A DNA stretch of 24,790 bases from a virus (Duplodnaviria; Heunggongvirae; Uroviricota; Caudoviricetes): the IMG/VR virus record IMGVR_UViG_3300020582_000005, one strand, 5' to 3'. The notes under the pieces are model-generated. The model was not told the origin of the DNA and did no database searches. It saw only the letters and a list, made by a program, of their open reading frames with translations. How positions within the stretch are numbered: position 1 is the stretch's first letter; each line of letters starts with the position of its first letter. The position numbers and the translations under genes are program-made. Below, in pieces: positions 1,325 through 24,790 of the stretch.

Positions 1325-1862
1325 GCATCGATTCGAGCTAAGCTTGCTCTCAGGCGCACCGTGGCAAGCTGAGATGGACCTTGCGAAGCAAGCGGGATTC
1401 AAGTGTGATGGTCCCCCCAGTTGGACTTGGGCCACATCTAAAGCATTGATCGTTGCAAAGCTTAAGGAGCACCGGCCTACCGTATTAGAGATTACGCCAC
1501 AAGCATTGGAAGAATTTAACAAGCTGATCCATCAGGAGCAGGAGAATCAGAAGATTATAGATCAGGTTAAAGAATTAAAGAAGGAGCAGCGCAAAAAAGA
1601 AAAGAAAGCTGAGCGAGTAGAAGAATTACTAACTAGTATACCTGCATACTGGCAAGGTAAGGATCAAATCGGTCGAGAGGATTTGCCTCAAGAATTAATT
1701 GAACGATTGAGCAAAAGAACAATGTTGACAATAGGAAAATCATCTAATACACTATGTCAGTATTGCCATGAGCCAGTTTACTTTTATGAGAAACAGGACC
1801 CACCGACGTGCATTTCGTGTGAACTAGATTTTGAGCAATTTCAAAAGGAGACAGGATTATGA
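1299..1862 (+). CDS. Hypothetical protein (N-terminal AK.AGF..W module, coiled coil, C-terminal CxxC..CxxC)
   Basis: 187-aa ORF with ATGA coupling to the next gene; CQYC...CISC. Confidence 0.7.
   Translation: MLITYNTTEHRFELSLLSGAPWQAEMDLAKQAGFKCDGPPSWTWATSKALIVAKLKEHRPTVLEITPQALEEFNKLIHQEQENQKIIDQVKELKKEQRKKEKKAERVEELLTSIPAYWQGKDQIGREDLPQELIERLSKRTMLTIGKSSNTLCQYCHEPVYFYEKQDPPTCISCELDFEQFQKETGL
1725..1753 (+). promoter_or_regulatory. Possible internal sigma70 promoter
   Basis: TTGACA (1725-1730), 17 bp, TACACT (1748-1753), inside a CDS. Confidence 0.35.
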
Positions 1863-2077
1863 CGCAGCTAGTTGAAGTCAAGCGATACAATTCAGTTGGG
1901 CAGTTTCTTTGTGCATATCAGGACGAAGTCATTGTTAAGGATTCACCCGAGTATCCCGATCTGAAAACGCAATTGAAAGCTGAGCAATGGACCTTGTCGC
2001 TCCCATCCGATCAAAAGTTAGATGAGCGTATTCTGCCCCGATTATTTGAAATAAAAAGCTTGACACGCAAGCGGTAA
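1859..2077 (+). CDS. Hypothetical protein
   Basis: ATGA overlap with the upstream gene; GGA upstream. Confidence 0.65.
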   Translation: MTQLVEVKRYNSVGQFLCAYQDEVIVKDSPEYPDLKTQLKAEQWTLSLPSDQKLDERILPRLFEIKSLTRKR

Positions 2078-2088
2078 TTTGGTAATAT
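2051..2088 (+). promoter_or_regulatory. Sigma70-type promoter with conserved upstream motif
   Basis: ATAAAAAGC-TTGACA (2060-2065), 17 bp, TAATAT (2083-2088); AAGGAG RBS follows. Confidence 0.8.
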
Positions 2089-2106
2089 ACTCTTAAGGAG
2101 ACACAA

Positions 2107-2361
2107 ATGAAAGCCAAAGTATTTCCAGCAAAGCCGAATGAAGATGAAGTTTTTCTGGCACTTGTGCAAGAGAATGATCGTGAGCTTCTTCTTATGTTGG
2201 CAGACTCAAATGGCAAACCGATTGAAGATTCGGAGATTTTGCGAATCGCTCCAGACTTTATAGAAGGAAAACTTCGAATCTTGAAGATTACCGGTCGTCA
2301 GTCGATTAAAGCAATCACGTCTAAATTTGTAATGGATGGGACGCAAGTTAAGGTTTTCTAA
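2107..2361 (+). CDS. Hypothetical protein
   Basis: Strong AAGGAG RBS, directly downstream of a promoter. Confidence 0.75.
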   Translation: MKAKVFPAKPNEDEVFLALVQENDRELLLMLADSNGKPIEDSEILRIAPDFIEGKLRILKITGRQSIKAITSKFVMDGTQVKVF

Positions 2362-2504
2362 TGCCTAAGAAGTTTACACAGGCGAACGAAGCACGGCGAC
2401 GTTCTCGTAATGTCCTGGGAACGTTGCCGCAGACTCGGGTGATTCAGGATAAGCGGCGTAAGCCAGCAAAGCATAAGAAACCACTGCGGAGTGACGATGT
2501 TTAA
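2361..2504 (+). CDS. Small basic protein, 47 aa (MPKKFTQANEARRRSRNVLGTLPQTRVIQDKRRKPAKHKKPLRSDDV)
   Basis: Read by hand; TAATG coupling fills the gap between neighbours exactly. Confidence 0.6.
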   Translation: MPKKFTQANEARRRSRNVLGTLPQTRVIQDKRRKPAKHKKPLRSDDV

Positions 2505-2805
2505 ATACGAGGACTATGCTGATGGTGCCCTGCTAGACAATGGCGGTAATTTGATTACCGAATCATTGCAGGAAGCAGCCCAGAGTGCCTTGTATCCGTC
2601 AAAGCGACAAAATAAGGAATCAAAGAATGAGAAATGTCAGGAGTGTCACATTCCGTTGTCTATTCCGGGTTCAATGTATTGCGATGTGTGCTCTGCTATG
2701 CGTGACTCTCTTAATCAAACTGGTTATTTCAACAAAGTCCACCTAGAGTGGGAAGAGGAAAATCAATCCAGGGCGAGTCACAAGCGCCAGATAATGGGGG
2801 AGTAA
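2497..2805 (+). CDS. Hypothetical protein with CxxC...CxxC motif
   Basis: GGAG 5 nt before ATG 2497; CQEC and CDVC. Confidence 0.65.
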   Translation: MFKYEDYADGALLDNGGNLITESLQEAAQSALYPSKRQNKESKNEKCQECHIPLSIPGSMYCDVCSAMRDSLNQTGYFNKVHLEWEEENQSRASHKRQIMGE

Positions 2806-3158
2806 TGAAAAGTTGTGCAAAGAAATTTCCTTCTGGCACCATACACGGACGCTATGATAGTAAAGTGTGCCCATCTTGCTCAATTCCTGAAAAATCCACA
2901 GCTGTGCAGGACGATTTTGTGTGGGATTTACCCGCACGTTACAAGCATGACGCATGTCCAAATTGCCGATATCTCGGTCGCTTTAACGATTACGATTTGT
3001 ACTACTGCGAAGGTATAATGACTAAGACTGTTCTGGCTAGATTCTCCCATGAACCATCAGGTTATTCGAGTGGATGGGGATCAAGCTTAGCTCCGTTGCT
3101 TGTAGCCGAAGCTCTTGCATATCGGCAGAACCTTGTCAGTAAGGATAAAATCGGATGA
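2805..3158 (+). CDS. Hypothetical Cys-motif protein
   Basis: GGGGAG-TAATG start at 2805 (ORF-track start 2748 trimmed); CPSC and HDACPNCRYLG. Confidence 0.65.
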   Translation: MKSCAKKFPSGTIHGRYDSKVCPSCSIPEKSTAVQDDFVWDLPARYKHDACPNCRYLGRFNDYDLYYCEGIMTKTVLARFSHEPSGYSSGWGSSLAPLLVAEALAYRQNLVSKDKIG

Positions 3159-3322
3159 GTCTACCGAAAGAAAAATTCGTCCCAAAGCCGTCTAAGTACG
3201 ATCAGCTGCTAAAAGGTTTAAATGAGTTAATTATTAAGTGGCGAGCCGAAGCCCCTTGGGAGATACAATGGGACGTGGCTGCTTGTGAATTAGAGTCTGT
3301 CATTAATAAGGTAATTAAATGA
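3155..3322 (+). CDS. Hypothetical protein, 55 aa
   Basis: Read by hand; ATGA overlaps at both ends. Confidence 0.6.
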   Translation: MSLPKEKFVPKPSKYDQLLKGLNELIIKWRAEAPWEIQWDVAACELESVINKVIK

Positions 3323-4065
3323 TTACAATAATCGGTGACGTACATGGCAAGACTCACGTCTACCAGAAGCGTCTACGTCAGCATTATGAAGGCAAACGGA
3401 CGATTCAGATCGGCGACATGGGTATCGGATTCAAGGGTGTCGGTCTGCATGAAATGCCGATGAATCATCGTTGGTTTCGTGGCAATCATGACAATCCGGA
3501 GTTATGCCGACAGCACCCCAATTATCTTGGCGATTACGGCTATTTGCCTGAGGATTGCCTATTCTGGCTAGCAGGTGCGTGGTCTATTGACCGTGCTATG
3601 CGTATTACCGGTGTCAGTTGGTGGCCCGACGAAGAGTTATCTATTAAGGAGTTGGGCGAAGCGTTGTATCTTTATGAACAAGTAAAGCCGGAGTATGTTA
3701 TTTCACACGAGGCTCCGCAAGAGGCCGCACGCTATTTAATAGGATCAACAGGTTCCGATGCTGGATATTTTAAAACTAAGATGGGCTGCATAGAGACTCG
3801 CACTAGCACAGCATTGCAGGCGATGCTCGATCTTCATCAGCCGAAGGAATGGGTGTTTGGTCATTATCACGTCAACATGCAATTTCAGATTTTTAATAAA
3901 CAGGGTGAGGTGCTTAAGACGAAATTTACTTGTGTCGGTGAATTAGGTGAGTATACTTTACGTACGGAGCTGTTATGCACTCGCTGTAAACAGGAGCGAT
4001 CTATGCACTCGATGGAGCCGCCTTATGATACGGATGATTGTCCTGGTTTTTCTTATATTCGTTAA
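3319..4065 (+). CDS. Calcineurin-like metallophosphoesterase
   Basis: All five motifs present: GDVHG, GDMG, GNHD, SHE, GHYH. Confidence 0.9.
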   Translation: MITIIGDVHGKTHVYQKRLRQHYEGKRTIQIGDMGIGFKGVGLHEMPMNHRWFRGNHDNPELCRQHPNYLGDYGYLPEDCLFWLAGAWSIDRAMRITGVSWWPDEELSIKELGEALYLYEQVKPEYVISHEAPQEAARYLIGSTGSDAGYFKTKMGCIETRTSTALQAMLDLHQPKEWVFGHYHVNMQFQIFNKQGEVLKTKFTCVGELGEYTLRTELLCTRCKQERSMHSMEPPYDTDDCPGFSYIR

Positions 4066-14341: not shown

Positions 14342-16408
14342 ATGGGCCAGTTTAAAGACATAGCTCTACCTCTAATTGCACGAGGCATTCCAGTAATGCC
14401 TCTGTTGCCTAAGGCTAAAAATGCTTTCCTTTCTGGGTGGCAAAATTTAGCTAGTTTCGATTTGAATCAAATTGAAGCTTGGGATACTCAATATCCTGAT
14501 CATAACTGCGGATCGGTTGCTAAAGCTACGCCTAGTGGTTACTGGTTTCTAGAATTAGATAGGCCAGAAGCAGGACAACGTATTGAAGCTGAAACCGGGC
14601 ATAGTGTCCCTCAGACATTTCGTGTACGTTCGTCTCCTGGTAGAGGGCATCTTTACTGGAAACAGAATGCAAAGTCGTTGGCGATGGGGAATATTTCGCA
14701 AAATTTTGTCAGAGACACAGATTGGTCAGCCCGTGTCGACAATGAATATGTGGTCAGTCCGGGCAGCTGGCACCCAAAGTCAGGTCGGCAATATGAGATT
14801 GTCAGCAACGCTGAAATTGTTGAAGCACCAGATTGGTTAATAGATTGGTGCATTAGTCAGAAACTTGACAAAAAAGTTGTCCAGAAAACTATTGAAGAGG
14901 GTGGTGTCATCCCTCATGGTGCTCGCAATGTTACGCTGGCTTCACTTGCTGGTAAGATGCGGCACCGAATGCAAGCCGACGAAGACGAGATTTATGCTTA
15001 TCTGAGAGAAGTAAATAGAAAGCAGTGTCAGCCGCCCCTGGCAGATGAGGATATAAGAGTCATTGCGGCTTCGATAGCCCGTTATCCTGTAAAGAATGAC
15101 ATTCCCCTCGTCCGTGGAGTCCCGATTGACGTACGGGCTTCCCAAGCGCAGCAACCAGTAGCTCCGGAAGAAGCTCTGGAAGAAGCTCCGGAGCCAATAA
15201 CGATATCTAGCGTACCTTACCCAAAGTTTCCAGAGTGGGTGATGAATGGTACTAGTTTATTTGAAGGCTTCGTTAAGCCAGTATGTGACGTTAATAGTCG
15301 ATATCCTGAATATATGTGGATGTCGGCTATGGTTATCCTGATGAACTTTCTTGCACTGAAAGTCAACGTAAATAAAAAGCGTCTAATACCGTCGTTTTTC
15401 TTGATCAACATAGGTATGAAAGGACGACTGCACAAGTCCGCATCGGTTGAAGACGCAATCCGTTATTTCGCTTGTATGGGTGTGTGCGATAATGGCGGTG
15501 TGATGACCCGAAATGCTGAAGGAAAGAGCTTAATCTATAGCCCTGGATCACCCGAAGGATTGGGCTTGGAGATGCAGAGAACTCAGTGTAAAAACGCTAT
15601 TCTTTATTACGACGAATTTATGACGTTAGTTAATAAAGCCGGAATAGATACGTCTGATCTCGTGGCAACACTGTTGAAGCTCTATGAGTCAGGTAAATTT
15701 TCGAATTTGATTAAGGCTCGCAAAGATAGTTTCTCATTAGAGTTTGGAACGTATTGCGTAAGCTTTATCGCTAATACAACCGACAAGAATTTCATTCGGC
15801 TCTGGAGCAAACTACTTGGCAACGAGAGTTCTGGTCTGAAAGACAGGTTCTTTTTCTTATATCAACCGCAGCGCTTGAAGGATCAGAAGCCATTCGTAGA
15901 TGTGAATTGGGGCGAAGGTGTTCTGAGAACTCGGAAGTTGATTGACGCAGCTTTGTTAAAGAAAACTTATGATATTATTTACCCGGAAATGTTGGATAAT
16001 ATTTCAAAGCGGATGGATGATCGTCAAGAGCAACGAGTCGAGCGTCTTGCATTAGCCTTTGCTGTAGATTTGGGTTTGGACGCTATAGATGATGAATGTA
16101 TCGAGCGTGCCATAGCAATCGTTGATTATGAACAAACCGTAAAGAAATATCTGAAAACTTTCGAGACACAGACAAAAGAAGCTCAAATTCAGATGGAAGT
16201 AATTGGTTATTTGATGCGGCATAACGGCACGGCTTTGCAACGAGATGTTGAGCGAGCCTTGCATCCTGTTGAGCAGTGGGGAACATTTTTGTGGAGTCGT
16301 TCATGGCAAGGATTAGTCATGTCGGGAAAAATTCAAGTTCTAGGTAGTGGTACAAGGGGTGATCCTAAGCAATGGCAACTTTTGTGGATTCCCGAAGAGG
16401 AAGAGTAA
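14342..16408 (+). CDS. Bifunctional primase-polymerase (AEP) + PriCT-1 + DUF3987-like P-loop/helicase domain
   Basis: IPVMPL..KAK...GWQ, LELD, GRGHLYW, YVVSPGSWHP; GARNVTLASLAG...PPL..EDI..IAASI; GMKGRLHKS, SPEGL, ILYYDEF. Confidence 0.85.
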   Translation: MGQFKDIALPLIARGIPVMPLLPKAKNAFLSGWQNLASFDLNQIEAWDTQYPDHNCGSVAKATPSGYWFLELDRPEAGQRIEAETGHSVPQTFRVRSSPGRGHLYWKQNAKSLAMGNISQNFVRDTDWSARVDNEYVVSPGSWHPKSGRQYEIVSNAEIVEAPDWLIDWCISQKLDKKVVQKTIEEGGVIPHGARNVTLASLAGKMRHRMQADEDEIYAYLREVNRKQCQPPLADEDIRVIAASIARYPVKNDIPLVRGVPIDVRASQAQQPVAPEEALEEAPEPITISSVPYPKFPEWVMNGTSLFEGFVKPVCDVNSRYPEYMWMSAMVILMNFLALKVNVNKKRLIPSFFLINIGMKGRLHKSASVEDAIRYFACMGVCDNGGVMTRNAEGKSLIYSPGSPEGLGLEMQRTQCKNAILYYDEFMTLVNKAGIDTSDLVATLLKLYESGKFSNLIKARKDSFSLEFGTYCVSFIANTTDKNFIRLWSKLLGNESSGLKDRFFFLYQPQRLKDQKPFVDVNWGEGVLRTRKLIDAALLKKTYDIIYPEMLDNISKRMDDRQEQRVERLALAFAVDLGLDAIDDECIERAIAIVDYEQTVKKYLKTFETQTKEAQIQMEVIGYLMRHNGTALQRDVERALHPVEQWGTFLWSRSWQGLVMSGKIQVLGSGTRGDPKQWQLLWIPEEEE

Positions 16409-16695
16409 TGAGTGACCTTCTTATTTATGGAAATCGTAAACAAGAGGATATTATTTGGGACATATCAACCCCCGAGAAACGAGCGGCAGGATTTTTAGCT
16501 TTGTTTCGTTTTCTTAATGAAGAGTGGGATGTTTATCAACCGGACGATTTAGACGCCGTTCAAGAAAAACTTTTCAATAAGGCCGTTGAAGGTGATGCCG
16601 TTGCGGCAGAACGCTTGTTGACTATACGTAAGAATTATGAATATGAAGAATGGGATTTTGGAGAATTAATCAACCCTCTGACAGGAAGAAAATGA
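16408..16695 (+). CDS. Hypothetical protein
   Basis: TAATG coupling at 16408. Confidence 0.65.
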   Translation: MSDLLIYGNRKQEDIIWDISTPEKRAAGFLALFRFLNEEWDVYQPDDLDAVQEKLFNKAVEGDAVAAERLLTIRKNYEYEEWDFGELINPLTGRK

Positions 16696-17378
16696 TACCT
16701 GAAATTAAGGTTCTAGATCACGGTTTTGTAAGTTTGGAAGATTCTTGTGCTACAGATTTGAGCGTAGTTAATTCGGCACGAGTCTCCTTTAATAAATATC
16801 ACGAAAAGATGGAAGAGGGTGACGACAAGCTGATCGGTTTCTTGATGAAGAACCGGCACGGTACGCCATTCGAACAGAATTTCTTCCGGTTTCGAGTCAA
16901 AGCTCCTATCTTCGTGTTTAGGGAGTGGCATCGGCATAGGATTGGAATCAGTATTAATGAGTGGAGCGCTCGTTATTCTGAATTAAAAGGTGAGTTTTAT
17001 ATCCCAAGCTTAGAAAACGTTCGCATTCAATTGGGAAAACCGGGATATTATACTTATGAAACGGCTTCGTCAGAATTAGCCCAACAATTTATTAATAAGC
17101 TACAGATAAGTAGTGAGTTTTGTTTTAAAGATTACCAAGAGGCTTTAGAATGGGGAATAGCTAAAGAACAGGCACGTTTTCTTCTACCAGTAAATATTTA
17201 TAGTGAGATGTACTGGTCTTGTAATGCTCGTAGCTTGATGAACTTTCTGAGTTTGCGGAATGCTCCTAAAGCTATGTGGGAAATTCGGCAGTATGCAGCA
17301 CAATTGGAAAATATTTTTAAAGAAGTTATGCCGATCACATGGCAATATTTTGTAGAAAATGAAAGGATGGCACCATGA
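16692..17378 (+). CDS. thyX: FAD-dependent thymidylate synthase
   Basis: VVNSARVS, RHGTPFE, REWHRHR, NEWSARY, NARSLMNFLSLR, EIRQYA. Confidence 0.95.
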   Translation: MIPEIKVLDHGFVSLEDSCATDLSVVNSARVSFNKYHEKMEEGDDKLIGFLMKNRHGTPFEQNFFRFRVKAPIFVFREWHRHRIGISINEWSARYSELKGEFYIPSLENVRIQLGKPGYYTYETASSELAQQFINKLQISSEFCFKDYQEALEWGIAKEQARFLLPVNIYSEMYWSCNARSLMNFLSLRNAPKAMWEIRQYAAQLENIFKEVMPITWQYFVENERMAP

Positions 17379-17869
17379 GTAATTATCCGTTATGGCATGA
17401 GAATGGATGTATGAAGTGGGACATTCGTTTTCTTGAGCTAGCGAAGCATATTTCCAGTTGGAGTAAAGACCCGTCAACAAAGGTCGGTGCCGTTCTAGTT
17501 AACGATCTTAAACAGGTTGTCGGTATGGGTTACAATGGTTTCGCTCGTGGTGTTCAAGATACTGATGAACGTTTAAATGATCGTGAAACAAAATATAAGT
17601 TAGTCGTTCACGCTGAAGTAAATGCGATTATTCAAGCTGGTTCTCAGGCTCGTAATTCGACATTATATGTTTATCCGTCTTTTATGATTCCACCGATTTG
17701 TCATGAGTGCTGTAAATCGGCCATTCAAGCGGGTATCAGAAAAATTGTCGGTTATGTACCAAATGAAGCGGACCCCCGTGTTCAGCGATGGAAGGATTCT
17801 ATACTGACTTCACGGGAAATGTGGCTTGAAGCAGGATGTGTCTGGAGAACTTACGAGGAGACAGTATGA
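17375..17869 (+). CDS. dCMP deaminase
   Basis: SKDPSTKVGA, GYNG, HAEVNAI, PICHECCK. Confidence 0.92.
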   Translation: MSNYPLWHENGCMKWDIRFLELAKHISSWSKDPSTKVGAVLVNDLKQVVGMGYNGFARGVQDTDERLNDRETKYKLVVHAEVNAIIQAGSQARNSTLYVYPSFMIPPICHECCKSAIQAGIRKIVGYVPNEADPRVQRWKDSILTSREMWLEAGCVWRTYEETV

Positions 17870-18387
17870 AATCGATTTATGTGATAGGAAGTTTACGGAA
17901 TCCAAATATTCCATTGTTAGCGAATGATTTGCGAAAACTAGGCTTGGATGTTTTTGACGATTGGTTTAGCTCAGGTCCTGAGACGGATGATTATTGGCAG
18001 AAATATGAAAAGATTAGAGGGCGCACATACGGAGAGGCACTTAACGGAACTATGGCTGATCATATATTCTCGTATGACAAGTCCCATCTCGACCGTACCG
18101 ACGCTGCTGTCCTAATGGCACCTGCCGGTAAATCTGGACATATGGAATTGGGCTACACTATCGGGAAGGGAAAGCCGGGATTCGTCTTGTTCGATAAAGA
18201 ACCGGAGAGATACGACGTGATGTACCGATTTGCAACAGGAGTTTTCTTTGACCGGCAAAAGTTTTTAGATCATATATCACAGCGTTACCTTGGAGTTTAC
18301 CCGAATAGTCTTCTATGTTGTGGAGGCGATGAAGCTGGAAATCATTTACGTCAATGTCCGAGTGTTGGAATTCCAGCAAATTTGTAA
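17866..18387 (+). CDS. Nucleoside 2-deoxyribosyltransferase-like protein 2
   Basis: IYVIGSLRN, YDKSHLDRTDAAV, GKSGHMELGY; GAGGAG RBS before ATG 17866. Confidence 0.75.
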   Translation: MKSIYVIGSLRNPNIPLLANDLRKLGLDVFDDWFSSGPETDDYWQKYEKIRGRTYGEALNGTMADHIFSYDKSHLDRTDAAVLMAPAGKSGHMELGYTIGKGKPGFVLFDKEPERYDVMYRFATGVFFDRQKFLDHISQRYLGVYPNSLLCCGGDEAGNHLRQCPSVGIPANL

Positions 18388-18388
18388 T

Positions 18389-19336
18389 ATGCGACTTGAA
18401 ACTGATCTTAAATTAGATTTTAGCGATGTTCTTCTAAAACCGAAACGATCTACTTTGTCTAGTCGATCTGAAGTGGATTTGGAACGAGAATTTAAATTTA
18501 AGTATTCTGAAAGAACGTGGAGAGGTATTCCTGTTATTTCGGCTAATATGTCTAGTGTGACCAATAAAGCGGTTGCTGATGTTATGTTTGCAGAGCATAT
18601 GTTAGCTGCTTTACCGAAGGGTTTTTTAATTACATCAAATTATTGTATTCAAACTGTAGGTTTAAAAGAAAATCCCGATGTGATTTTAAATAATCTGTGT
18701 GTAGATGTGGCCAACGGTTATTCTGAGCAACTGGTTCAAAGAGTTTCTCAGTTACGTTCATTATATAAAAATGTTACGATTATGGCTGGAAACGTTGTCA
18801 CGGCAGAAATGACAGAAGCTTTGATCTTAGCAGGTGCCGACGTAGTTAAAGTTGGTATCGGTTCTGGAAGTGCTTGTTCAACTCGATTAAAGACCGGCGT
18901 TGGTTATCCGCAATTGAGTGCCATAGCAGAGGCTGCAGACGCTGCTCACGGCCTAGGAGCACATATTATTTCTGATGGCGGATGTACTGCTCCGGGTGAT
19001 GTTGTTAAAGCATTCGCTGCAGGCGCAGACTTTGTCATGCTTGGCGGAATGCTTGCCGGTTGTCAAGAAAATGGTCCTGATTTCTACGGCATGTCATCTA
19101 GACGAGCCAATGAGGAAATGGCTGGCGGATTAAAAGATTATAAAGCGGCTGAAGGATGGGAGATGACACTTCCGCCTAAAGGTTCTCTGAAAGATGTTCT
19201 GCAAGATATTAAAGGTGGATTGCGAAGTGCTTGTGCTTATGTGGGAGCTAAGCGATTGAAAGATTTACCGAAATGCGCCACGTTTATTAGAGTGAATAAT
19301 CAGATTAATAAATCGCTGCTGGATTATCGAATTTAA
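18389..19336 (+). CDS. guaC: GMP reductase (type 1, shortened)
   Basis: DLKLDFSDVLLKPKRSTLSSRSEVDLER, CVDVANGYSE, KVGIGSGSACSTR, SDGGC, FYGMSS, GGLRSACAYVGA. Confidence 0.93.
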   Translation: MRLETDLKLDFSDVLLKPKRSTLSSRSEVDLEREFKFKYSERTWRGIPVISANMSSVTNKAVADVMFAEHMLAALPKGFLITSNYCIQTVGLKENPDVILNNLCVDVANGYSEQLVQRVSQLRSLYKNVTIMAGNVVTAEMTEALILAGADVVKVGIGSGSACSTRLKTGVGYPQLSAIAEAADAAHGLGAHIISDGGCTAPGDVVKAFAAGADFVMLGGMLAGCQENGPDFYGMSSRRANEEMAGGLKDYKAAEGWEMTLPPKGSLKDVLQDIKGGLRSACAYVGAKRLKDLPKCATFIRVNNQINKSLLDYRI

Positions 19337-20577
19337 TGGAACTATTCCATATCGACTACGAGTCTCGAAGTGAAGTTGAGATCGGAGATAAGAATAAACG
19401 TGAAGGTGTAGGCCTTTACAATTATCTGCATCATCCGACGACAAAGCCTTTAATGATGGCGTACGCTCTTGGTGATGCAAAACCGCAGCTGTGGGAGATA
19501 GCTCAGGGCGAGCCTATGCCTAAATTCGTTTGGGAACGTATGACAGACCCGAATCAGTTGATGGCAGCGTGGTACTCGGCGTTTGAACGTGGGATGACAT
19601 TAGTGAAACTTGGAATAGATATTCCGATAGAACGTTGGTATGATCCACAAGCTAGTTCTAGATATCTGTCTTTGACGGGTAAATTGGAAATTGATAGTCA
19701 AGTTTTAAATCTTGGAAAAGAATTTGCGAAGGACGAACGTGGTGAAGATTTAATTCATTTGTTTAGCCGATTGACAGTTGTCAAAGCTACAAAGAAACGT
19801 CAAGCAGCAAGTTTCTTTAATGACTACAATTCACATCCTAAGGAGTGGCAGGAATTTGGAGAATATTGTCGCCAAGATATTGTTGCAGAACGAGAAAACG
19901 CTCGCCGACTTCAACTTCTCGGAGTATTTCCTTTGCCCGAGCGAGAGCGAAGAATCTGGATATTTGATCAAAAAGTCAACGACCGAGGGCTTCCAGTCAA
20001 TATGGAGTTCGTCATTAAAGCATATAAATTAGCTTGTCGAGCTAAGGAAGCAGCCCTAGCAAATCAGCAGCGCTTGACTGGTTTAGAGAATGCTAATTCG
20101 CCTTTGCAAATGCTTGAGTGGGCACAGGGACAGGGTTATAAGCCAAATACGCTTCGTAAAGAACGTGTCACTGCTACTTTGAAATATGAGAAAGATACTA
20201 TAACTCCATTATGTGTCCGGGTGTTAGAAGCTCGTGCAGCGGCTAGTTCCACAACGTACAAGAAATTGGCTGCCATCATCAGACAGGTTTGTCCAGACAA
20301 CAGACTTCGTCACCAATTTATATATATGGGATCGGCACGGTGTGGTCGGTGGACAGGGAACGGATTCCAAGTTCACAATCTGGCACGCCCTGACAAGCGA
20401 TTCGAGGATCAGAAAAATATTAAGAAAGCCCGAGCGCTGGTGTTGACTGAAGATTATCAGGGAATTATCGATGCGTTCGGTAAGAAGCCAGAAAATAACA
20501 ATGGTGACATCGATTACGGCGCAGTCTTGATTGTTGTGAAAAATTTGATACGGACGGTATTCGAAGTTGCCAGATAA
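19336..20577 (+). CDS. polA: Family A DNA polymerase, N-terminal part (3'-5' exonuclease, thumb, palm motifs 1-2; APSE-like phage type)
   Basis: IDYESRS (ExoI), SAFER (ExoII), EYCRQDI (ExoIII), STTYKKL, ARCGRWTG..FQVHNLAR; ends LIRTVFEVAR-stop with no motif A, B or C. Confidence 0.9.
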   Translation: MELFHIDYESRSEVEIGDKNKREGVGLYNYLHHPTTKPLMMAYALGDAKPQLWEIAQGEPMPKFVWERMTDPNQLMAAWYSAFERGMTLVKLGIDIPIERWYDPQASSRYLSLTGKLEIDSQVLNLGKEFAKDERGEDLIHLFSRLTVVKATKKRQAASFFNDYNSHPKEWQEFGEYCRQDIVAERENARRLQLLGVFPLPERERRIWIFDQKVNDRGLPVNMEFVIKAYKLACRAKEAALANQQRLTGLENANSPLQMLEWAQGQGYKPNTLRKERVTATLKYEKDTITPLCVRVLEARAAASSTTYKKLAAIIRQVCPDNRLRHQFIYMGSARCGRWTGNGFQVHNLARPDKRFEDQKNIKKARALVLTEDYQGIIDAFGKKPENNNGDIDYGAVLIVVKNLIRTVFEVAR

Positions 20578-20848
20578 TTGTATCTGCGGACATGCTAGAA
20601 AGGAACATCGTCAAATTTATTTAGATGATGAAGCAATCCGTGGGGAGTGTTTACACTGGTTTCCACAATGGCTTTCATTTTTGAAAATAGGTTCTCAGTG
20701 TCAATGTAAAGAATTTGAGTTACCATTACACGATAATTTTTATAAACAAGACGGCGTTTATTGGTGGAACGATGCGCCTCGTTATGTTCATGACACAAAT
20801 AGATGCCGAGTTTGCAACGGGAGTTTGAGGACAGTTCGTGGACACTAG
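20567..20848 (+). CDS. Small Cys/His-rich protein inserted between the two polA parts
   Basis: TTG start; CICGH....H...C.H...CQC..F and CRVC; overlaps both polA parts by 11 nt. Confidence 0.6.
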   Translation: MPDNCICGHARKEHRQIYLDDEAIRGECLHWFPQWLSFLKIGSQCQCKEFELPLHDNFYKQDGVYWWNDAPRYVHDTNRCRVCNGSLRTVRGH

Positions 20849-21824
20849 ACTGAATGTCGCCGATCTTAATGCAATCGAGACGAGAGTAGCCGCTTGGATC
20901 GCTGGCTGCGAGCCTCTACTTCAAGTATTTTATGAGGGAAAAGACCCCTATTTAGCTTTCGCCGTCAAAATGTACGGCATACCTTATGAAACTTTAGAAG
21001 CTGATTTACATTCCGATGATCCGGTCAAGAAAGCCGCAGCGAAGTTCATGCGGCAGATGGCGAAGCCGGGAGTTCTTGCGGCGGTGTATCGTCAAGGTGC
21101 CGGTGGAATGGGTAAGGATAAAAAGACTGGTGATCCTAAGAAGCTAGGATTGTGGGGCTATGCTGAAAACATGGGCATAGATATGACTCTTGCAGAGGCT
21201 CAGAATATCACAAACGTTTTTCGTGAGTCATATCCCGAAATCGTCCATATGTGGTATGCGTTAGAAATAGCTATCAAGTCGGTTTTGCAGAATAGACCGG
21301 TGACAACGACGAATCCGGATATGTTGTTCTCCTTGAGCAGACTGGATCAAATAGGAATAAAGTTCGATAAGCTTCCTTTTAACGATAGAGGAAATGATCG
21401 CCAGATTCTTAGAATGCAATTGCCGTCAGGTAGATATCTTCATTATGTGGATGCTCACATCGACGATATTAGAATGCCGTGGAGCACTGAAGATAATGAA
21501 GTATTCAAACCCGGATTGATTTATAGTGGCGTCGATCAGGAAACAAAGCAGTGGAAGAACGGTATTGTCAGTCACGGTGGAAAAGTTTTTGAAAATGCTG
21601 TGCAAGCGATAGCCCGAGATGTTCTATGTGATAAACTTTTAGAAATCGATCAGATTTGTTCAATCTGTGGTCACGTACATGACGAAGGAATTAGTGAAAC
21701 AGACAATGATCCGTTTCACCCTGGCTATCGAGAGATGGTTCATTTGATGTCACAGCCGGTCAGATGGGCACCAGATTTACCTCTAGGAGCAGATGGCTTT
21801 GAGGATGTTTATTATCATAAGTGA
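20838..21824 (+). CDS. polA: Family A DNA polymerase, C-terminal part (motifs A, B, C)
   Basis: VADLNAIETR (A), RQMAKPGVLAAVY (B), ENAVQAIARD, GHVHDE (C); GAGG 7 nt before GTG. Confidence 0.9.
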   Translation: MDTRLNVADLNAIETRVAAWIAGCEPLLQVFYEGKDPYLAFAVKMYGIPYETLEADLHSDDPVKKAAAKFMRQMAKPGVLAAVYRQGAGGMGKDKKTGDPKKLGLWGYAENMGIDMTLAEAQNITNVFRESYPEIVHMWYALEIAIKSVLQNRPVTTTNPDMLFSLSRLDQIGIKFDKLPFNDRGNDRQILRMQLPSGRYLHYVDAHIDDIRMPWSTEDNEVFKPGLIYSGVDQETKQWKNGIVSHGGKVFENAVQAIARDVLCDKLLEIDQICSICGHVHDEGISETDNDPFHPGYREMVHLMSQPVRWAPDLPLGADGFEDVYYHK

Positions 21825-22254: not shown

Positions 22255-23486
22255 AATTTGTACCTATGTATGACTTGGATCGCTTGTCCAAGGAAGAACT
22301 TCAGCAGTATTATCTTGATGCATGTCAATTCCATGGTGTGCCGCCTGAGTTAAACGTCTTGGCATTCACCTACATGGATTCCGGAGACGGAGCACGTCGT
22401 CGAGTCCTGTACGCTAAGAAAGGTGCCACGGATATTATTCGTGAACGGTTGGGAATCTCCGTCGCTGATCTTAGAAAGGAAATCTTTAACGGTACCCTGA
22501 CTTATACTTGCTTTGGTAAGAATAAAGACGGTCGATTTGAAATAGCTGTCGGTGCGTCTTATATCGATGGTTTGACGGGCAGAGCATTGGAAGTCGCCAT
22601 AATGGTCGCTCAGACTCGGGCTATTCGGCGAATGACACTGCAGTTTGCTGGTGCAGGTTTAATCGATGAAACTGAGCTTCAAGCAGATTCAAAGACAACT
22701 GACGTTAAGGAAGCTTTAACAACGCCGCAGCCAGTGAATAGACCCAATGCAGCGGCGGGTAAAGATATAACTGACAGTGGAATCGGTAATCTTTCTAGCC
22801 CCATCGATCTAGAAGTAGTTAAAACGCTACGAAGTGAACCTCTAGGACCTACCCAAGCCCAATTAGAGGCTCAACAAGCCTTGTCTAAGGTGCCGGAGAC
22901 GGTTCTAGCCAAGGAAGCCGGGGAAACGCTCCCTGAGGCTCCTAAACGTCGACAACGGCAGAAGCCAGTAGAGTTGGATACTCCATTCTCTTTTGATAAC
23001 CCCGTTCCAGTGCCAAAGTCAGTGAACGCCGACATTCCGGAAAGTAAGCAAACGACGACACCGGTAAAAGAAGTATCGGTTATCGAAACCTGGAAATCTT
23101 ATCCAGAGCATCTTACAGTAACTTTGCCAAAACCGGTTGACTTTGAACGTTTAGATGTAATGCCTGTTATTCCTAAGGCAGAAGATATCATTCCCGAGAT
23201 GAAGGCTCCTATTCCTGAATTACCGAATGATCAGCAGATGAAAGCATTTCGTGATCGTTTGTTCACATATACGAATACGATCCTGCCACAAGCAGGTATG
23301 GTTCCAACAGAGAACATTGGTGGTATCGGCATGAAGGTTCGTTTATTTGCTCAAGCAACGTACGGTCAAGTCCTGAATCAACTGACTGTCGCTCAGTGGG
23401 AAAATATGTTTAAGATGTTTGATAGTTTAACTCCAGTAGGTTTGGTTAAGTTGATTGATGAAACAGCCTTGAAAACAAAAGCATGA
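22251..23486 (+). CDS. RecT/Red-beta-like single-strand annealing protein with long C-terminal extension
   Basis: LS.EE..QYY...C...G..P, VLYAKKGATD.IR, GRFE.AVGA, M.AQTRAIRR.TL..AG.G.IDETE pattern; start 22251 by ATGA coupling. Confidence 0.7.
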   Translation: MKFVPMYDLDRLSKEELQQYYLDACQFHGVPPELNVLAFTYMDSGDGARRRVLYAKKGATDIIRERLGISVADLRKEIFNGTLTYTCFGKNKDGRFEIAVGASYIDGLTGRALEVAIMVAQTRAIRRMTLQFAGAGLIDETELQADSKTTDVKEALTTPQPVNRPNAAAGKDITDSGIGNLSSPIDLEVVKTLRSEPLGPTQAQLEAQQALSKVPETVLAKEAGETLPEAPKRRQRQKPVELDTPFSFDNPVPVPKSVNADIPESKQTTTPVKEVSVIETWKSYPEHLTVTLPKPVDFERLDVMPVIPKAEDIIPEMKAPIPELPNDQQMKAFRDRLFTYTNTILPQAGMVPTENIGGIGMKVRLFAQATYGQVLNQLTVAQWENMFKMFDSLTPVGLVKLIDETALKTKA

Positions 23487-24790
23487 TACTTAATGATGAA
23501 CAGCAGGCGGTAGTTAAGGCTATTGACGGAACGTGGGTGACCGTCGCAGGGCCGGGAAGCGGTAAGACGACTGTCTTAATTCAACGATATTTGAATATGT
23601 TGATGGGCGGTATTAAGTCTAAGGATATCCTTAATCTAACATTTACTGCTGCCGCAGCAGAAGAGATGGTCAACCGAGTCGGCTTATTGAATGCTAACAA
23701 AGTGTTTAGAACGTTTCATAGTTTCGCCTTGGAGTTGATTAAGAACGAACGGCAGCACCTGCCGTTCAAATTGTCAGATACGGTAATTCCAGTTGCTTTG
23801 GAAGATTACAAGTTGATATTTAAATTAGTCGAATCGTACAAAGCAATTAATAATTATCAGTTGTTGAAAGAGATGATCAGTGGTTGGAAACGTTCTAATA
23901 TGGAGCCAGAGCAAGTTATAGCGGAGTCAAATAATGAACGAGAATACTTCTACGGATTGGCATATAGAGATTACGAGCGTCGTTGTCGAGAAGAAGGGTG
24001 GCTGGACTTTGATTCGCTTATGCGGGAAACGGTCAAGCTCCTTGAAGCCGATGGAACCGTTCGTTCTAGATATCAACGGTCCTACATCAGCGTGGATGAA
24101 GCCCAAGACACTGATATCGTCCAATTCCGACTGCTTCAGCTTATCTTCGCAGGAAACATCTTCGTTGTTGGAGATGAGAATCAGCTTATATACGAATGGC
24201 GAAGTGCTCAGCCAGGAAGCCTCTCAAACTTCGAAAGATTGTTTCCAGGCGCTAGAAAGTTGTATCTCGGAGAAAATTTTCGCTCCACGGGAGAGTTGGT
24301 CAGCTTTTTCAAAACGATCCTCCCGGTGGACAACGGCATTGCATCGCATATGGTCACTCGGAACCCTTTGGGAGAAAAGCCATCATTCACTAAATTTTTC
24401 GACGACTTTTCAGAAGCGAGTTGGATCATCGATCACTTACTTGATCCGCCACGGACAGCAATCTTAGCTAGAACGAATCGGCAGTTGTTTATTTATCAGC
24501 GATTAATGTCTAGTCGTGGAATTAAATATGTGTTCCTGGGTAAAAAAGATTTCTTTGATCAGAAGGAAATTAAACATATGTTGTCTTTAGCTAAAGGCTA
24601 TCTTGAGGATACTCGACCAGCGCACCAAATTTTATCAGCGATCATACGTGAACATAATCTTCCAGCGTTATTTAGAAATTTTAATCCGGACGAGGCCGAT
24701 CCTATAAATAATATGAACGGCTTAGTTAAAATCGCAGTGGAAAAAGGCGGTAATATAAAAGAGTTTTTAGATTTTATGCGGAAATTAATG
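23483..24790 (+). CDS. uvrD: UvrD/PcrA-like SF1A helicase, 3'-truncated (absent from the ORF track)
   Basis: Read by hand: LNDEQ, AGPGSGKT, LTFTAAAAEEM, RTFHSF, LDFD, VDEAQD, VGDENQLIYEWR, ENFRST, AILARTN; runs off the window end. Confidence 0.95.
   Translation, partial: MILNDEQQAVVKAIDGTWVTVAGPGSGKTTVLIQRYLNMLMGGIKSKDILNLTFTAAAAEEMVNRVGLLNANKVFRTFHSFALELIKNERQHLPFKLSDTVIPVALEDYKLIFKLVESYKAINNYQLLKEMISGWKRSNMEPEQVIAESNNEREYFYGLAYRDYERRCREEGWLDFDSLMRETVKLLEADGTVRSRYQRSYISVDEAQDTDIVQFRLLQLIFAGNIFVVGDENQLIYEWRSAQPGSLSNFERLFPGARKLYLGENFRSTGELVSFFKTILPVDNGIASHMVTRNPLGEKPSFTKFFDDFSEASWIIDHLLDPPRTAILARTNRQLFIYQRLMSSRGIKYVFLGKKDFFDQKEIKHMLSLAKGYLEDTRPAHQILSAIIREHNLPALFRNFNPDEADPINNMNGLVKIAVEKGGNIKEFLDFMRKLM

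What the first reader, a model, noticed from the sequence alone, without database searches (positions are those of the whole stretch)
19336..21824. Gene-in-pieces family A DNA polymerase split immediately before motif A
Seen: part 1 ends LIRTVFEVAR-stop (20577) and part 2 begins (V/M)DTRLNVADLNAIETR (20838) with its own GAGG RBS. Joining gives RT-VFEVARDTRLNV-AD, 12 residues between RT and AD, the same as E. coli Pol I (RQ-AFIAPEDYVIVS-AD). Essentially no residues are lost or duplicated, and all catalytic motifs are intact, which argues against decay. The 260-nt spacer holds a complete ORF and shows no group I P7/S elements or intein features. Established precedent: phage Aeh1 nrdA is split by mobE yet forms a composite active site. 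Inference: a heterodimeric PolA whose palm is assembled from two chains, or an unrecognised RNA- or ribosome-level joining mechanism.
Basis: partly seen in the sequence, partly recalled or inferred. Interest (0 to 1): 0.85.

Follow-up and report, generated by a model that had tools for sequence, protein, structure and literature searches.

The report
Phage DNA polymerase in two genes
This uncultured phage encodes its family A DNA polymerase as two separately translated genes, broken at a surface turn just before the catalytic aspartate; a small unrelated zinc-finger-like gene sits in the gap, and this is a real, widespread case of a known "genes-in-pieces" arrangement.

Summary
PolA part 1 (19336-20577), a 93-aa Cys/His-rich ORF (20567-20848) and PolA part 2 (20838-21824) lie in three frames with 11-nt overlaps, and all catalytic motifs are intact.

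The split is not peculiar to this window:
- An 83%-identical relative has the same break with no insert (GTGA stop/start overlap).
- 101 of the 120 best stand-alone C-halves from metagenomes start 3-14 residues before the motif A aspartate.
- Relatives carry Endonuclease VII-type homing-endonuclease genes or other small ORFs at the same site. Others are contiguous.
- A tree needs at least 3 changes of state.

Both halves are under strong purifying selection (dN/dS 0.07 and 0.09). Complete related genomes hold no other polymerase. The break maps to a four-residue turn before the motif A strand, and a complex prediction passed (0.89 against 0.00 for controls).

I found no sign of an intron, an intein or recoding. 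The gap ORF is a real small gene family that sits in other genomic contexts elsewhere.

The most likely product is a non-covalent two-chain polymerase, at a recurrent landing site for mobile genes.

OM43 phages MEP401/402 (PMC10580990) are split at the same turn. This scan had already found the same split on other DNA (e1-3449235, e1-3606031, e1-3428034).

The parts
19336..20577 (+). PolA part 1 (413 aa): 3'-5' exonuclease domain, thumb and the first palm element. It ends ...LIRTVFEVAR-TAA.
   Evidence: ORF list. phrog_17 DNA polymerase E 2e-37. tblastn to phage DNA polymerases. Aligns to profile positions 2-402 of contiguous relatives.
19354..19362 (+). Exo I motif D7-x-E9
   Evidence: Invariant in the alignment of 12 split N-halves.
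20567..20848 (+). 93-aa Cys/His-rich ORF filling the gap (TTG start, TAG stop, 11-nt overlaps on both sides). It belongs to a small phage gene family of unknown function.
   Evidence: No Pfam, PHROG or NCBIfam match. Four homologues at 48-69% identity with invariant Cys/His positions. These lie outside PolA in other phage contigs.
20827..20831 (+). Shine-Dalgarno-like GAGGA, 6 nt before the GTG of part 2
   Evidence: Read from the sequence. The relative L002 has GAGG 7 nt before its GTG.
20838..21824 (+). PolA part 2 (328 aa): motif A strand, fingers and the rest of the palm.
   Evidence: PF00476 E 3e-5, below the gathering score. phrog_17 E 9e-44. tblastn to phage DNA polymerase I. 335 stand-alone homologues.
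20859..20885 (+). Motif A (ADLNAIETR; catalytic Asp9 at 20862-20864)
   Evidence: Invariant D9, L10, I13, E14, R16 in 50 homologues. Aligns with Taq LDYSQIELR.
21051..21089 (+). Motif B (R72...K76...Y84)
   Evidence: Invariant columns.
21672..21686 (+). Motif C (H279-V-H-D282-E283)
   Evidence: Invariant columns. Aligns with Taq VHDE.

Best explanation
The phage's only family A DNA polymerase is a true gene in pieces. The coding sequence is broken inside the palm, at a four-residue surface turn between the helix ending ...IRTVF and the beta-strand that carries the catalytic motif A aspartate.

Part 1 (exonuclease, thumb and first palm element) and part 2 (motif A strand, fingers, motifs B and C) are translated separately from one transcript. 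Translation probably relies on termination-reinitiation coupling through the overlapping stop/start pairs. The two chains then reassemble non-covalently into an ordinary PolA fold with a two-chain palm.

The break site is a recurrent landing pad for mobile genes. Relatives carry free-standing Endonuclease VII/HNH-type homing endonuclease genes there, or other small ORFs, or nothing at all. So the fission was most likely created by endonuclease-gene invasion next to the highly conserved motif A DNA, or at least repeatedly exploited by it.

In the window's lineage the gap now holds a different cargo: a 93-aa Cys/His-rich gene of a small phage family that lives in other genomic contexts elsewhere.

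Shown here: anatomy, conservation, selection, sole-polymerase status in related complete genomes, and location of the break.
Inferred: association and activity of the two chains, translational coupling, and the endonuclease origin of the split.
For: 1. The same break appears in independent assemblies.
- L002/L003 (83% identity) have part 1 TGA overlapping part 2 GTG, with no insert.
- 101 of 120 stand-alone C-halves (44-85% identity, many on 20-124 kb contigs) start 3-14 residues before the motif A Asp.

2. In an IMG/VR sample of 57 loci, 44 are contiguous, 5 are split with no gap and 8 are split with inserts of 154-768 nt at the same site.
- The inserts in L024, L027 and L037, and in the contig of P0009 (66% identity, in the window's own clade by its identity to part 2), encode PF02945 Endonuclease_7 proteins.
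- Other gaps hold two further small conserved ORF families.

3. The tree needs at least 3 changes of state, and the AU test rejects one split clade (p 0.008).

4. dN/dS between the window and L008, which are both split, is 0.070 for part 1 and 0.090 for part 2, with dS above 1.

5. Related genomes that are complete or nearly so (two 100% complete with terminal repeats, one 94%) have no PolB or DnaE. Each has exactly two matches to the PolA profile, which are the two halves.

6. An AlphaFold2 model of a contiguous relative (pLDDT 88) puts the break in the turn A406-G409, between helix 392-403 and strand 410-417, which carries Asp416.

7. Complex prediction for part 1 plus part 2:
- score 0.89 in all three runs, best of 3 controls 0.00;
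- in calibration the mark was reached by 58 of 80 solved complexes and 2 of 110 mismatched pairs, counts that hold only roughly because my own alignments were used;
- the runs agree in at least 93% of contacts, and the partner pLDDT is 89;
- the part 1 tail (406-412) packs against part 2 residues 1-5 and 324-328.

8. The gap ORF has four homologues with conserved Cys/His positions. The three whose neighbouring genes can be read lie outside PolA, so it is an independent gene.
Against: The complex prediction may only reflect the model's memory of the contiguous PolA fold, as the tool itself warns.

The window's gap ORF is not a recognisable endonuclease, so an endonuclease origin for this particular lineage rests on relatives. 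The order of events (split first or insert first) cannot be told.

The small ORF starts with TTG and has no clear ribosome-binding site.

The window's whole genome was not available, so sole-polymerase status is shown only for relatives.
Confidence: 0.8

Rival explanations
1. The halves are joined into one chain by an RNA-level or ribosome-level event: a self-splicing intron, translational bypass, or two +1 frameshifts that read the gap ORF through as an insertion domain.
For: The three frames run 1, 2, 3 with symmetric 11-nt overlaps. An AGA codon precedes the part 1 stop and another AGA lies four codons into part 2. Introns are known in other phage PolA genes (PMC3428280, listed).
Against: - No Rfam intron match at E up to 10.
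- RNA folding z-score is -0.16.
- The insert is wholly a conserved protein-coding gene that stands alone elsewhere.
- Relatives with zero-length gaps still have the halves in different frames, with a stop directly before the start.
- There is no slippery sequence at either overlap (read).
- A 272-nt hop would be over five times the known T4 gene 60 bypass (my own knowledge).
Confidence: 0.05
2. Protein trans-splicing: a 'fractured gene' with split-intein halves flanking a mobile gene (Dassa et al. 2009).
For: The gene order (host N-part, mobile gene, host C-part) is the same as in fractured genes (PMC2677866).
Against: Part 1 ends and part 2 begins on polymerase residues, with at most one extra residue relative to contiguous relatives. 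That leaves no room for an N-intein of about 100 aa or a C-intein of about 35 aa. There is no Cys/Ser/Thr nucleophile at the junction.
Confidence: 0.01
3. The polymerase is a decaying pseudogene or an assembly artefact, and replication relies on another enzyme.
For: The gene is interrupted. The Exo II asparagine is replaced by tyrosine in the window. The window's whole genome could not be searched.
Against: - dN/dS is 0.07-0.09 across two split lineages.
- All catalytic motifs are intact.
- The same split with proper start codons is found in over 100 independent sequences.
- No other polymerase is present in complete related genomes.
Confidence: 0.04
4. The 93-aa Cys/His protein is itself the agent: a new kind of small mobile nuclease that created or maintains the split. 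Alternatively it is a third subunit or regulator of the polymerase. This is not exclusive of the best explanation.
For: It occupies exactly the site that Endonuclease VII genes occupy in relatives. It occurs in unrelated contexts in other phages, as mobile genes do. It has conserved putative zinc ligands.
Against: It shows no similarity to HNH, GIY-YIG or Endonuclease VII proteins. The fold prediction was poor, pLDDT 49. The 83%-identical relative does without it.
Confidence: 0.12

Closest known systems
Methylophilales (OM43) phages MEP401/MEP402, DNA polymerase gp13 / gp14 / gp15 (PMC10580990; GenBank OP830906)
   Same: A family A polymerase split inside the pol domain with a small ORF of unknown function in the gap.

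I read the record. gp13 ends ...IKTLFLSRYGE and gp15 starts MILNADAKALEW. Pfam places gp15 residue 2 at PF00476 position 154, against window part 2 residue 6 at position 155. The break is therefore in the same turn, within about 3 residues.
   Different: It is a distant PolA lineage (Zobellviridae); hhalign could not even align the C-halves. The gap ORF is unrelated (78 aa). The authors suggested an intron and gave no comparative series or endonuclease link.
Aeromonas phage Aeh1 nrdA-a / mobE / nrdA-b, and split gene 43 (43A/43B) of Aeromonas phages 25 and 44RR (reviewed in PMC2988022; also PMC2677866)
   Same: [quoted passage not shown] The halves are translated separately and reassemble; activity has been shown for both of those enzymes. 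A related phage has a split without the endonuclease. Stop/start overlaps occur, as with mobE.
   Different: The enzymes differ: ribonucleotide reductase and a family B polymerase. In the window the gap gene is not a recognisable endonuclease. Here the natural series is much larger (contiguous, endonuclease-occupied, other cargo, empty) and shows at least three changes of state.
Exo/pol domain fission in T7-like cyanophage PolA (S-SBP1-like; Czernecki et al. 2023, PMC10201439)
   Same: A family A polymerase encoded by two adjacent genes and predicted to reassemble into the normal fold.
   Different: That break lies between the exonuclease and polymerase domains. This one lies inside the palm, 8 residues before the catalytic aspartate, so the active-site sheet itself is built from two chains.
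Fractured genes with split inteins (Dassa et al. 2009, PMC2677866), and intron-interrupted phage PolA genes (for example Pf-WMP3, PMC3428280)
   Same: Mobile elements target conserved active-site-coding DNA of phage replication genes. The gene order is N-part, endonuclease gene, C-part.
   Different: There are no intein halves and no ribozyme here. Joining is non-covalent.

Membership tests
Family A DNA polymerase (PolA) | Polymerase motifs A (D...E), B (R...K...Y) and C (HDE) | tested here: met
   D9/E14, R72/K76/Y84 and H279-HDE283 of part 2 are invariant in 50 homologues. The profile of contiguous relatives hits Taq and Klenow at E 2e-9, with motif A and motif C aligned.
Family A DNA polymerase (PolA) | Match to the curated family model | tested here: inconclusive
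   PF00476 gives 23.4 bits for part 2, below the 34.3 cut-off, and no hit for part 1. phrog_17 'DNA polymerase' gives E 2e-37 and 9e-44. tblastn hits over 1600 phage DNA polymerase I genes.
Family A DNA polymerase (PolA) | N-terminal 3'-5' exonuclease motifs Exo I-III | tested here: met
   D7-x-E9, F83-E84 and Y177...D181 are conserved in 12 N-halves. The Exo II asparagine is Tyr80 in the window only.
Genes-in-pieces made by free-standing homing endonuclease genes (Aeh1 nrdA/mobE type) | The gene is contiguous in relatives and cut without loss of residues | tested here: met
   44 contiguous loci against 13 split loci. The junction length is conserved at 12 residues, plus the initiator residue.
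Genes-in-pieces made by free-standing homing endonuclease genes (Aeh1 nrdA/mobE type) | A homing endonuclease gene lies in the gap | tested here: not met
   The window's gap ORF has no endonuclease signature. The feature is met in relatives: PF02945 Endonuclease_7 ORFs in L024, L027, L037 and the P0009 contig.
Genes-in-pieces made by free-standing homing endonuclease genes (Aeh1 nrdA/mobE type) | The two products reassemble into an active enzyme | not testable with these tools
   Indirect evidence only: purifying selection, sole polymerase in relatives, and a complex prediction of 0.89 against a best control of 0.00, which may reflect memory of the contiguous fold.
Fractured genes (split-intein type) | N-intein at the end of part 1 and C-intein at the start of part 2 | tested here: not met
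   The termini abut polymerase residues directly.
Group I/II intron-interrupted gene | Ribozyme core between the exons | tested here: not met
   No Rfam match at E up to 10. Folding z-score -0.16. The insert is a conserved ORF.
Exo/pol domain-split PolA (S-SBP1-like) | Break at the exonuclease/polymerase domain boundary | tested here: not met
   The break is at residue 413, in the palm turn before motif A.

The most novel reading that the evidence does not exclude
The turn before motif A is a general fission hot spot of family A polymerases. It was hit independently at least three times in this uncultured clade and again in Zobellviridae OM43 phages. Two-chain PolA with a composite active-site sheet would then be a stable, widespread enzyme form. 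Gap residents such as the window's Cys/His protein would not be passive cargo: they would be either a new kind of small mobile nuclease or a recruited polymerase accessory subunit.
Probability: 0.12. Interest if true: 0.65.

Novelty: new member of a known kind. Interest (0 to 1): 0.45.

Why it matters
The finding shows that a family A polymerase tolerates a chain break eight residues before its catalytic aspartate. It also shows that nature has made this break repeatedly.

The natural series covers every stage: contiguous genes, genes occupied by an Endonuclease VII-type gene, genes carrying other cargo, and empty splits with overlapping stop and start. This is a good system for studying two things:
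- how homing endonuclease genes fracture essential genes;
- how the pieces stay functional.

It also points to a ready-made split site for engineering two-piece PolA enzymes.

For annotation, stand-alone "half polymerases" of about 330 and 410 aa in phage metagenomes should not be called pseudogenes or fragments.

Tried and rejected
- DNA-level search of the phage collection found nothing. The nearest cultured phages are at most 37% identical and contiguous.
- Synechococcus virus S-ESS1 looked split, but at another position with overlapping CDS. I took it for a probable frameshift and dropped it.
- Rfam at a permissive threshold gave only chance snoRNA hits.
- No whole genome is held for the window.
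- A word-based homologue search for the gap ORF found nothing. Only the exhaustive HMMER search found its four relatives.
- BLASTP and hhalign of the gap ORF against the Endonuclease VII gap proteins were not significant.
- AlphaFold2 of the gap ORF gave pLDDT 49, too poor for a fold search. The protein atlas and NCBIfam gave nothing.
- phmmer of a contiguous relative against the PDB found nothing. A profile was needed.
- Promoter and terminator scans were at chance level.
- No flanking direct repeats or target-site duplication were found. The 'RTV' echo between the part 1 tail and the gap ORF tail is native to the gap ORF family, so it is not a duplication.
- hhalign could not align MEP401 gp15 to the part 2 family. 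Pfam coordinates were used instead.
Full report
**What is in the sequence.** Three + strand ORFs occupy 19336-21824 in three different frames.
- PolA part 1 is 19336-20577, 413 aa, ending LIRTVFEVAR-TAA.
- A 93-aa Cys/His-rich ORF runs from TTG 20567 to TAG 20848.
- PolA part 2 runs from GTG 20838 to 21824, 328 aa, beginning VDTRLNVADLNAIETR.

Each neighbouring pair overlaps by 11 nt. The part 2 frame is closed by TGA at 20826-20828, and GAGGA lies 6 nt before the GTG.

Part 1 carries Exo I and Exo III and most of Exo II. Part 2 carries motifs A, B and C, all at positions that are invariant in its relatives. PHROG 17 and tblastn identify both halves as phage DNA polymerase I. The nearest cultured relatives are Casjensviridae-like and similar phages at 37% identity or less, and all of them are contiguous.

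**The split is real and old.** IMG/VR contigs L002 and L003 come from two metagenomes and are 83% identical in part 2. They have the same break with no insert: the TGA of part 1 overlaps the GTG of part 2, and a TAA in the part 2 frame lies directly before that GTG.

More distant relatives (L004 and L005, about 50% identity) are contiguous and read ...IIRTVFVAPEGQRMNVCDLNAIETR. The split forms neither lose nor gain residues, apart from the initiator.

A search restricted to proteins of 180-574 aa returned 335 stand-alone C-halves. Of the best 120 (44-85% identity, many on contigs of 20-124 kb), 101 start 3-14 residues before the motif A aspartate, typically M-x-x-R-F-N-V-[AC]-D.

**What sits in the gap elsewhere.** I surveyed 57 usable IMG/VR loci, a sample not biased by protein length.
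- 44 are contiguous.
- 5 are split with overlapping or abutting stop and start (GTGA in L008, ATGA in L032, longer overlaps in L010 and L018).
- 8 are split with inserts of 154-768 nt at the same position.

Every insert is filled by + strand ORFs that overlap the stop of part 1 and the start of part 2.

In L024, L027 and L037 the ORF is a PF02945 Endonuclease_7 protein with N-terminal CxHGxxKxxCxxC repeats. L029 has a related protein. By identity to part 2, the contigs of P0009, P0007 and P0003 belong with the window's own clade.
- The contig of P0009 (66% identity) has part 1, a 196-aa Endonuclease_7 gene and part 2.
- The contig of P0007 (70% identity) has a 393-nt gap with no called gene.
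- The contig of P0003 (85% identity) has two ORFs in the gap.

Two other small protein families recur in gaps: L029/L036, and L026/L030.

Endonuclease VII-type proteins are an established homing endonuclease family in cyanophages. I take this from the title and abstract of PMC6083498 as listed; I did not read the paper further.

**How often it happened.** I built a maximum-likelihood tree from the N and C parts with the junction left out. It places the split loci in three separate, well supported groups inside a 28-row clade whose outgroups are all contiguous. At least three changes of state are needed.

Forcing all split rows into one clade costs 71.9 log-likelihood units, with p-AU 0.008. 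The tree cannot say whether these changes are three fissions, or fewer fissions followed by re-fusions.

**Is the split enzyme functional?**
- Selection. The window and L008 are both split, so their divergence postdates the fission. dN/dS between them is 0.070 for part 1 and 0.090 for part 2, with dS above 1.
- Sole polymerase. I searched four related records that carry the split. Two are 100% complete with terminal repeats, one is 94% complete and one is 61% complete. None has a PolB or DnaE match, and each has exactly two matches to the PolA profile, which are the two halves.
- Location of the break. An AlphaFold2 model of a contiguous relative (pLDDT 88.3) shows a helix at 392-403 (...NLIRTV), a four-residue turn A406-P-P-G409, and a strand at 410-417 carrying Asp416. 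The split falls inside that turn. The profile alignment equates this stretch with Taq IRRAFIAEEG / WLLVALDYSQIELR.
- Complex prediction. Part 1 with part 2 scored 0.89 in all three runs, and the best of 3 controls scored 0.00. In calibration the mark was reached by 58 of 80 solved complexes and 2 of 110 mismatched pairs; these counts hold only roughly here because my own alignments were used. The runs agree in at least 93% of contacts and the partner pLDDT is 89. The part 1 tail (406-412) packs against part 2 residues 1-5 and 324-328.

As the tool warns, halves of a known fold can pass from memory. The prediction shows likeness to the contiguous polymerase, not binding.

**Joining mechanisms considered and set aside.**
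- Intron. There is no Rfam hit at E up to 10 and the folding z-score is -0.16. The insert is a conserved protein gene. Relatives with zero-length gaps have nothing to splice, yet their halves are in different frames.
- Split intein. There are no extra residues at either terminus.
- Frameshifting or bypass. There is no slippery sequence at either overlap. The AGA...AGA pair would need a 272-nt hop and would delete three conserved residues.
- Promoter-like and terminator-like sites are at chance level. This fits one transcript with translational coupling, as proposed for nrdA/mobE in T4 (PMC2988022).

**The gap ORF of the window.** It has no Pfam, PHROG or NCBIfam match and no word-level homologue. 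An exhaustive HMMER search found four relatives at 48-69% identity, 91-165 aa long. Positions C5, C7, H14, C28, C45, C47, H55, H75, C80 and C83 are invariant, so it is a real gene.

For three of the four relatives the neighbouring genes can be read, and none lies in a polymerase gene.
- One lies between sugar-modifying genes on a 96.8-kb phage-like contig.
- Two lie among small phage ORFs.

The fourth relative (P0121, 69% identity) is known only from contigs of about 1 kb without DNA, so its context is unknown.

The gap ORF is not significantly similar to the Endonuclease VII gap proteins, and its fold could not be predicted. I read it as independent, moron-like or mobile cargo that took the place occupied by endonuclease genes in relatives. 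Its function is unknown.

**Comparison with what is known.** The arrangement works like the Aeh1 nrdA/mobE and phage 25/44RR gene 43 'genes in pieces' (PMC2988022; PMC2677866).

Within family A, Czernecki et al. (PMC10201439) described an exo/pol domain fission as the first PolA split. That break is at a different site.

The closest precedent is the OM43 phages MEP401/402 (PMC10580990). Their PolA is split by a small unknown ORF, and the authors suggested an intron. I read the GenBank record and found that the break lies in the same turn: gp13 ends ...LFLSRYGE and gp15 starts MILNADAKALEW. The Pfam coordinates are within about 3 residues of the window's. The site is therefore a convergent hot spot in two distant PolA lineages.

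This scan had already reported the same split on other DNA:
- e1-3449235 is the L024 genome;
- e1-3606031 has a 68-aa gap ORF like that of L036;
- e1-3428034 has an additional one-base interruption inside motif A.

**Verdict.** This is a new member of a known kind. It is of moderate interest because of the rich natural series and the intra-palm position of the break. It is not categorically new.

Noticed in passing
L027:3488-3530: Part 2 of this endonuclease-occupied relative reads MSTRFNVCDL, then TAA, and continues NAIESRV in the +1 frame. The sequence is CTT TAA C where relatives have CTT AAC. This is either an extra T in a T-run (an error) or a prfB-like +1 shift site inside motif A, as an earlier scan note (e1-3428034) proposed for CUU-UGA in another genome.
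   Followed up: partly
window:19573-19575: The Exo II asparagine (AFNSAFER in relatives) is tyrosine in the window (AAWYSAFER). The 88%-identical L008 keeps the asparagine. This may affect proofreading.
   Followed up: no
window:14342-19336 and 23483-24790: The neighbourhood is a replication and nucleotide-metabolism module: primase-helicase (14342-16408), thymidylate synthase (16650-17378), dCMP deaminase (17375-17869), nucleoside deoxyribosyltransferase-like (17836-18387), a GMP reductase/IMPDH-family gene (18290-19336) and a UvrD-type helicase (from 23483).
   Followed up: partly
proteins P0017, P0026, P0040, P0050, P0053: A minority of stand-alone C-halves start about 21 residues earlier (M-x-KYYSPLII...IRTVF...). 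P0017 is on a 40.7-kb contig. This may be a second fission site or a gene-calling artefact.
   Followed up: no
L029:2732-2938 and L036:3298-3504; L026:3343-3504 and L030:3283-3495: Two further small protein families (68 aa; 53-70 aa) recur in the polymerase gap of different relatives, one of them next to an endonuclease-like gene. Their function is unknown; there is only a weak DUF2188 hint.
   Followed up: partly
contig of P0009 (no DNA available): Besides the Endonuclease_7 gene in the polymerase gap, a LAGLIDADG-like ORF lies two genes downstream of part 2. These phages appear rich in homing endonuclease genes.
   Followed up: no
L088:3001-3276: The closest gap-ORF homologue for which DNA is available (56% identity) lies between an aminotransferase/epimerase cluster and glycosyltransferase genes on a 96.8-kb phage-like contig.
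   Followed up: partly
L001 (KY249644, Synechococcus virus S-ESS1) 1759-3874: The DNA polymerase is annotated as two overlapping CDS broken near the C-terminus. Neighbouring helicase genes are likewise split, which suggests frameshift errors in the record.
   Followed up: no
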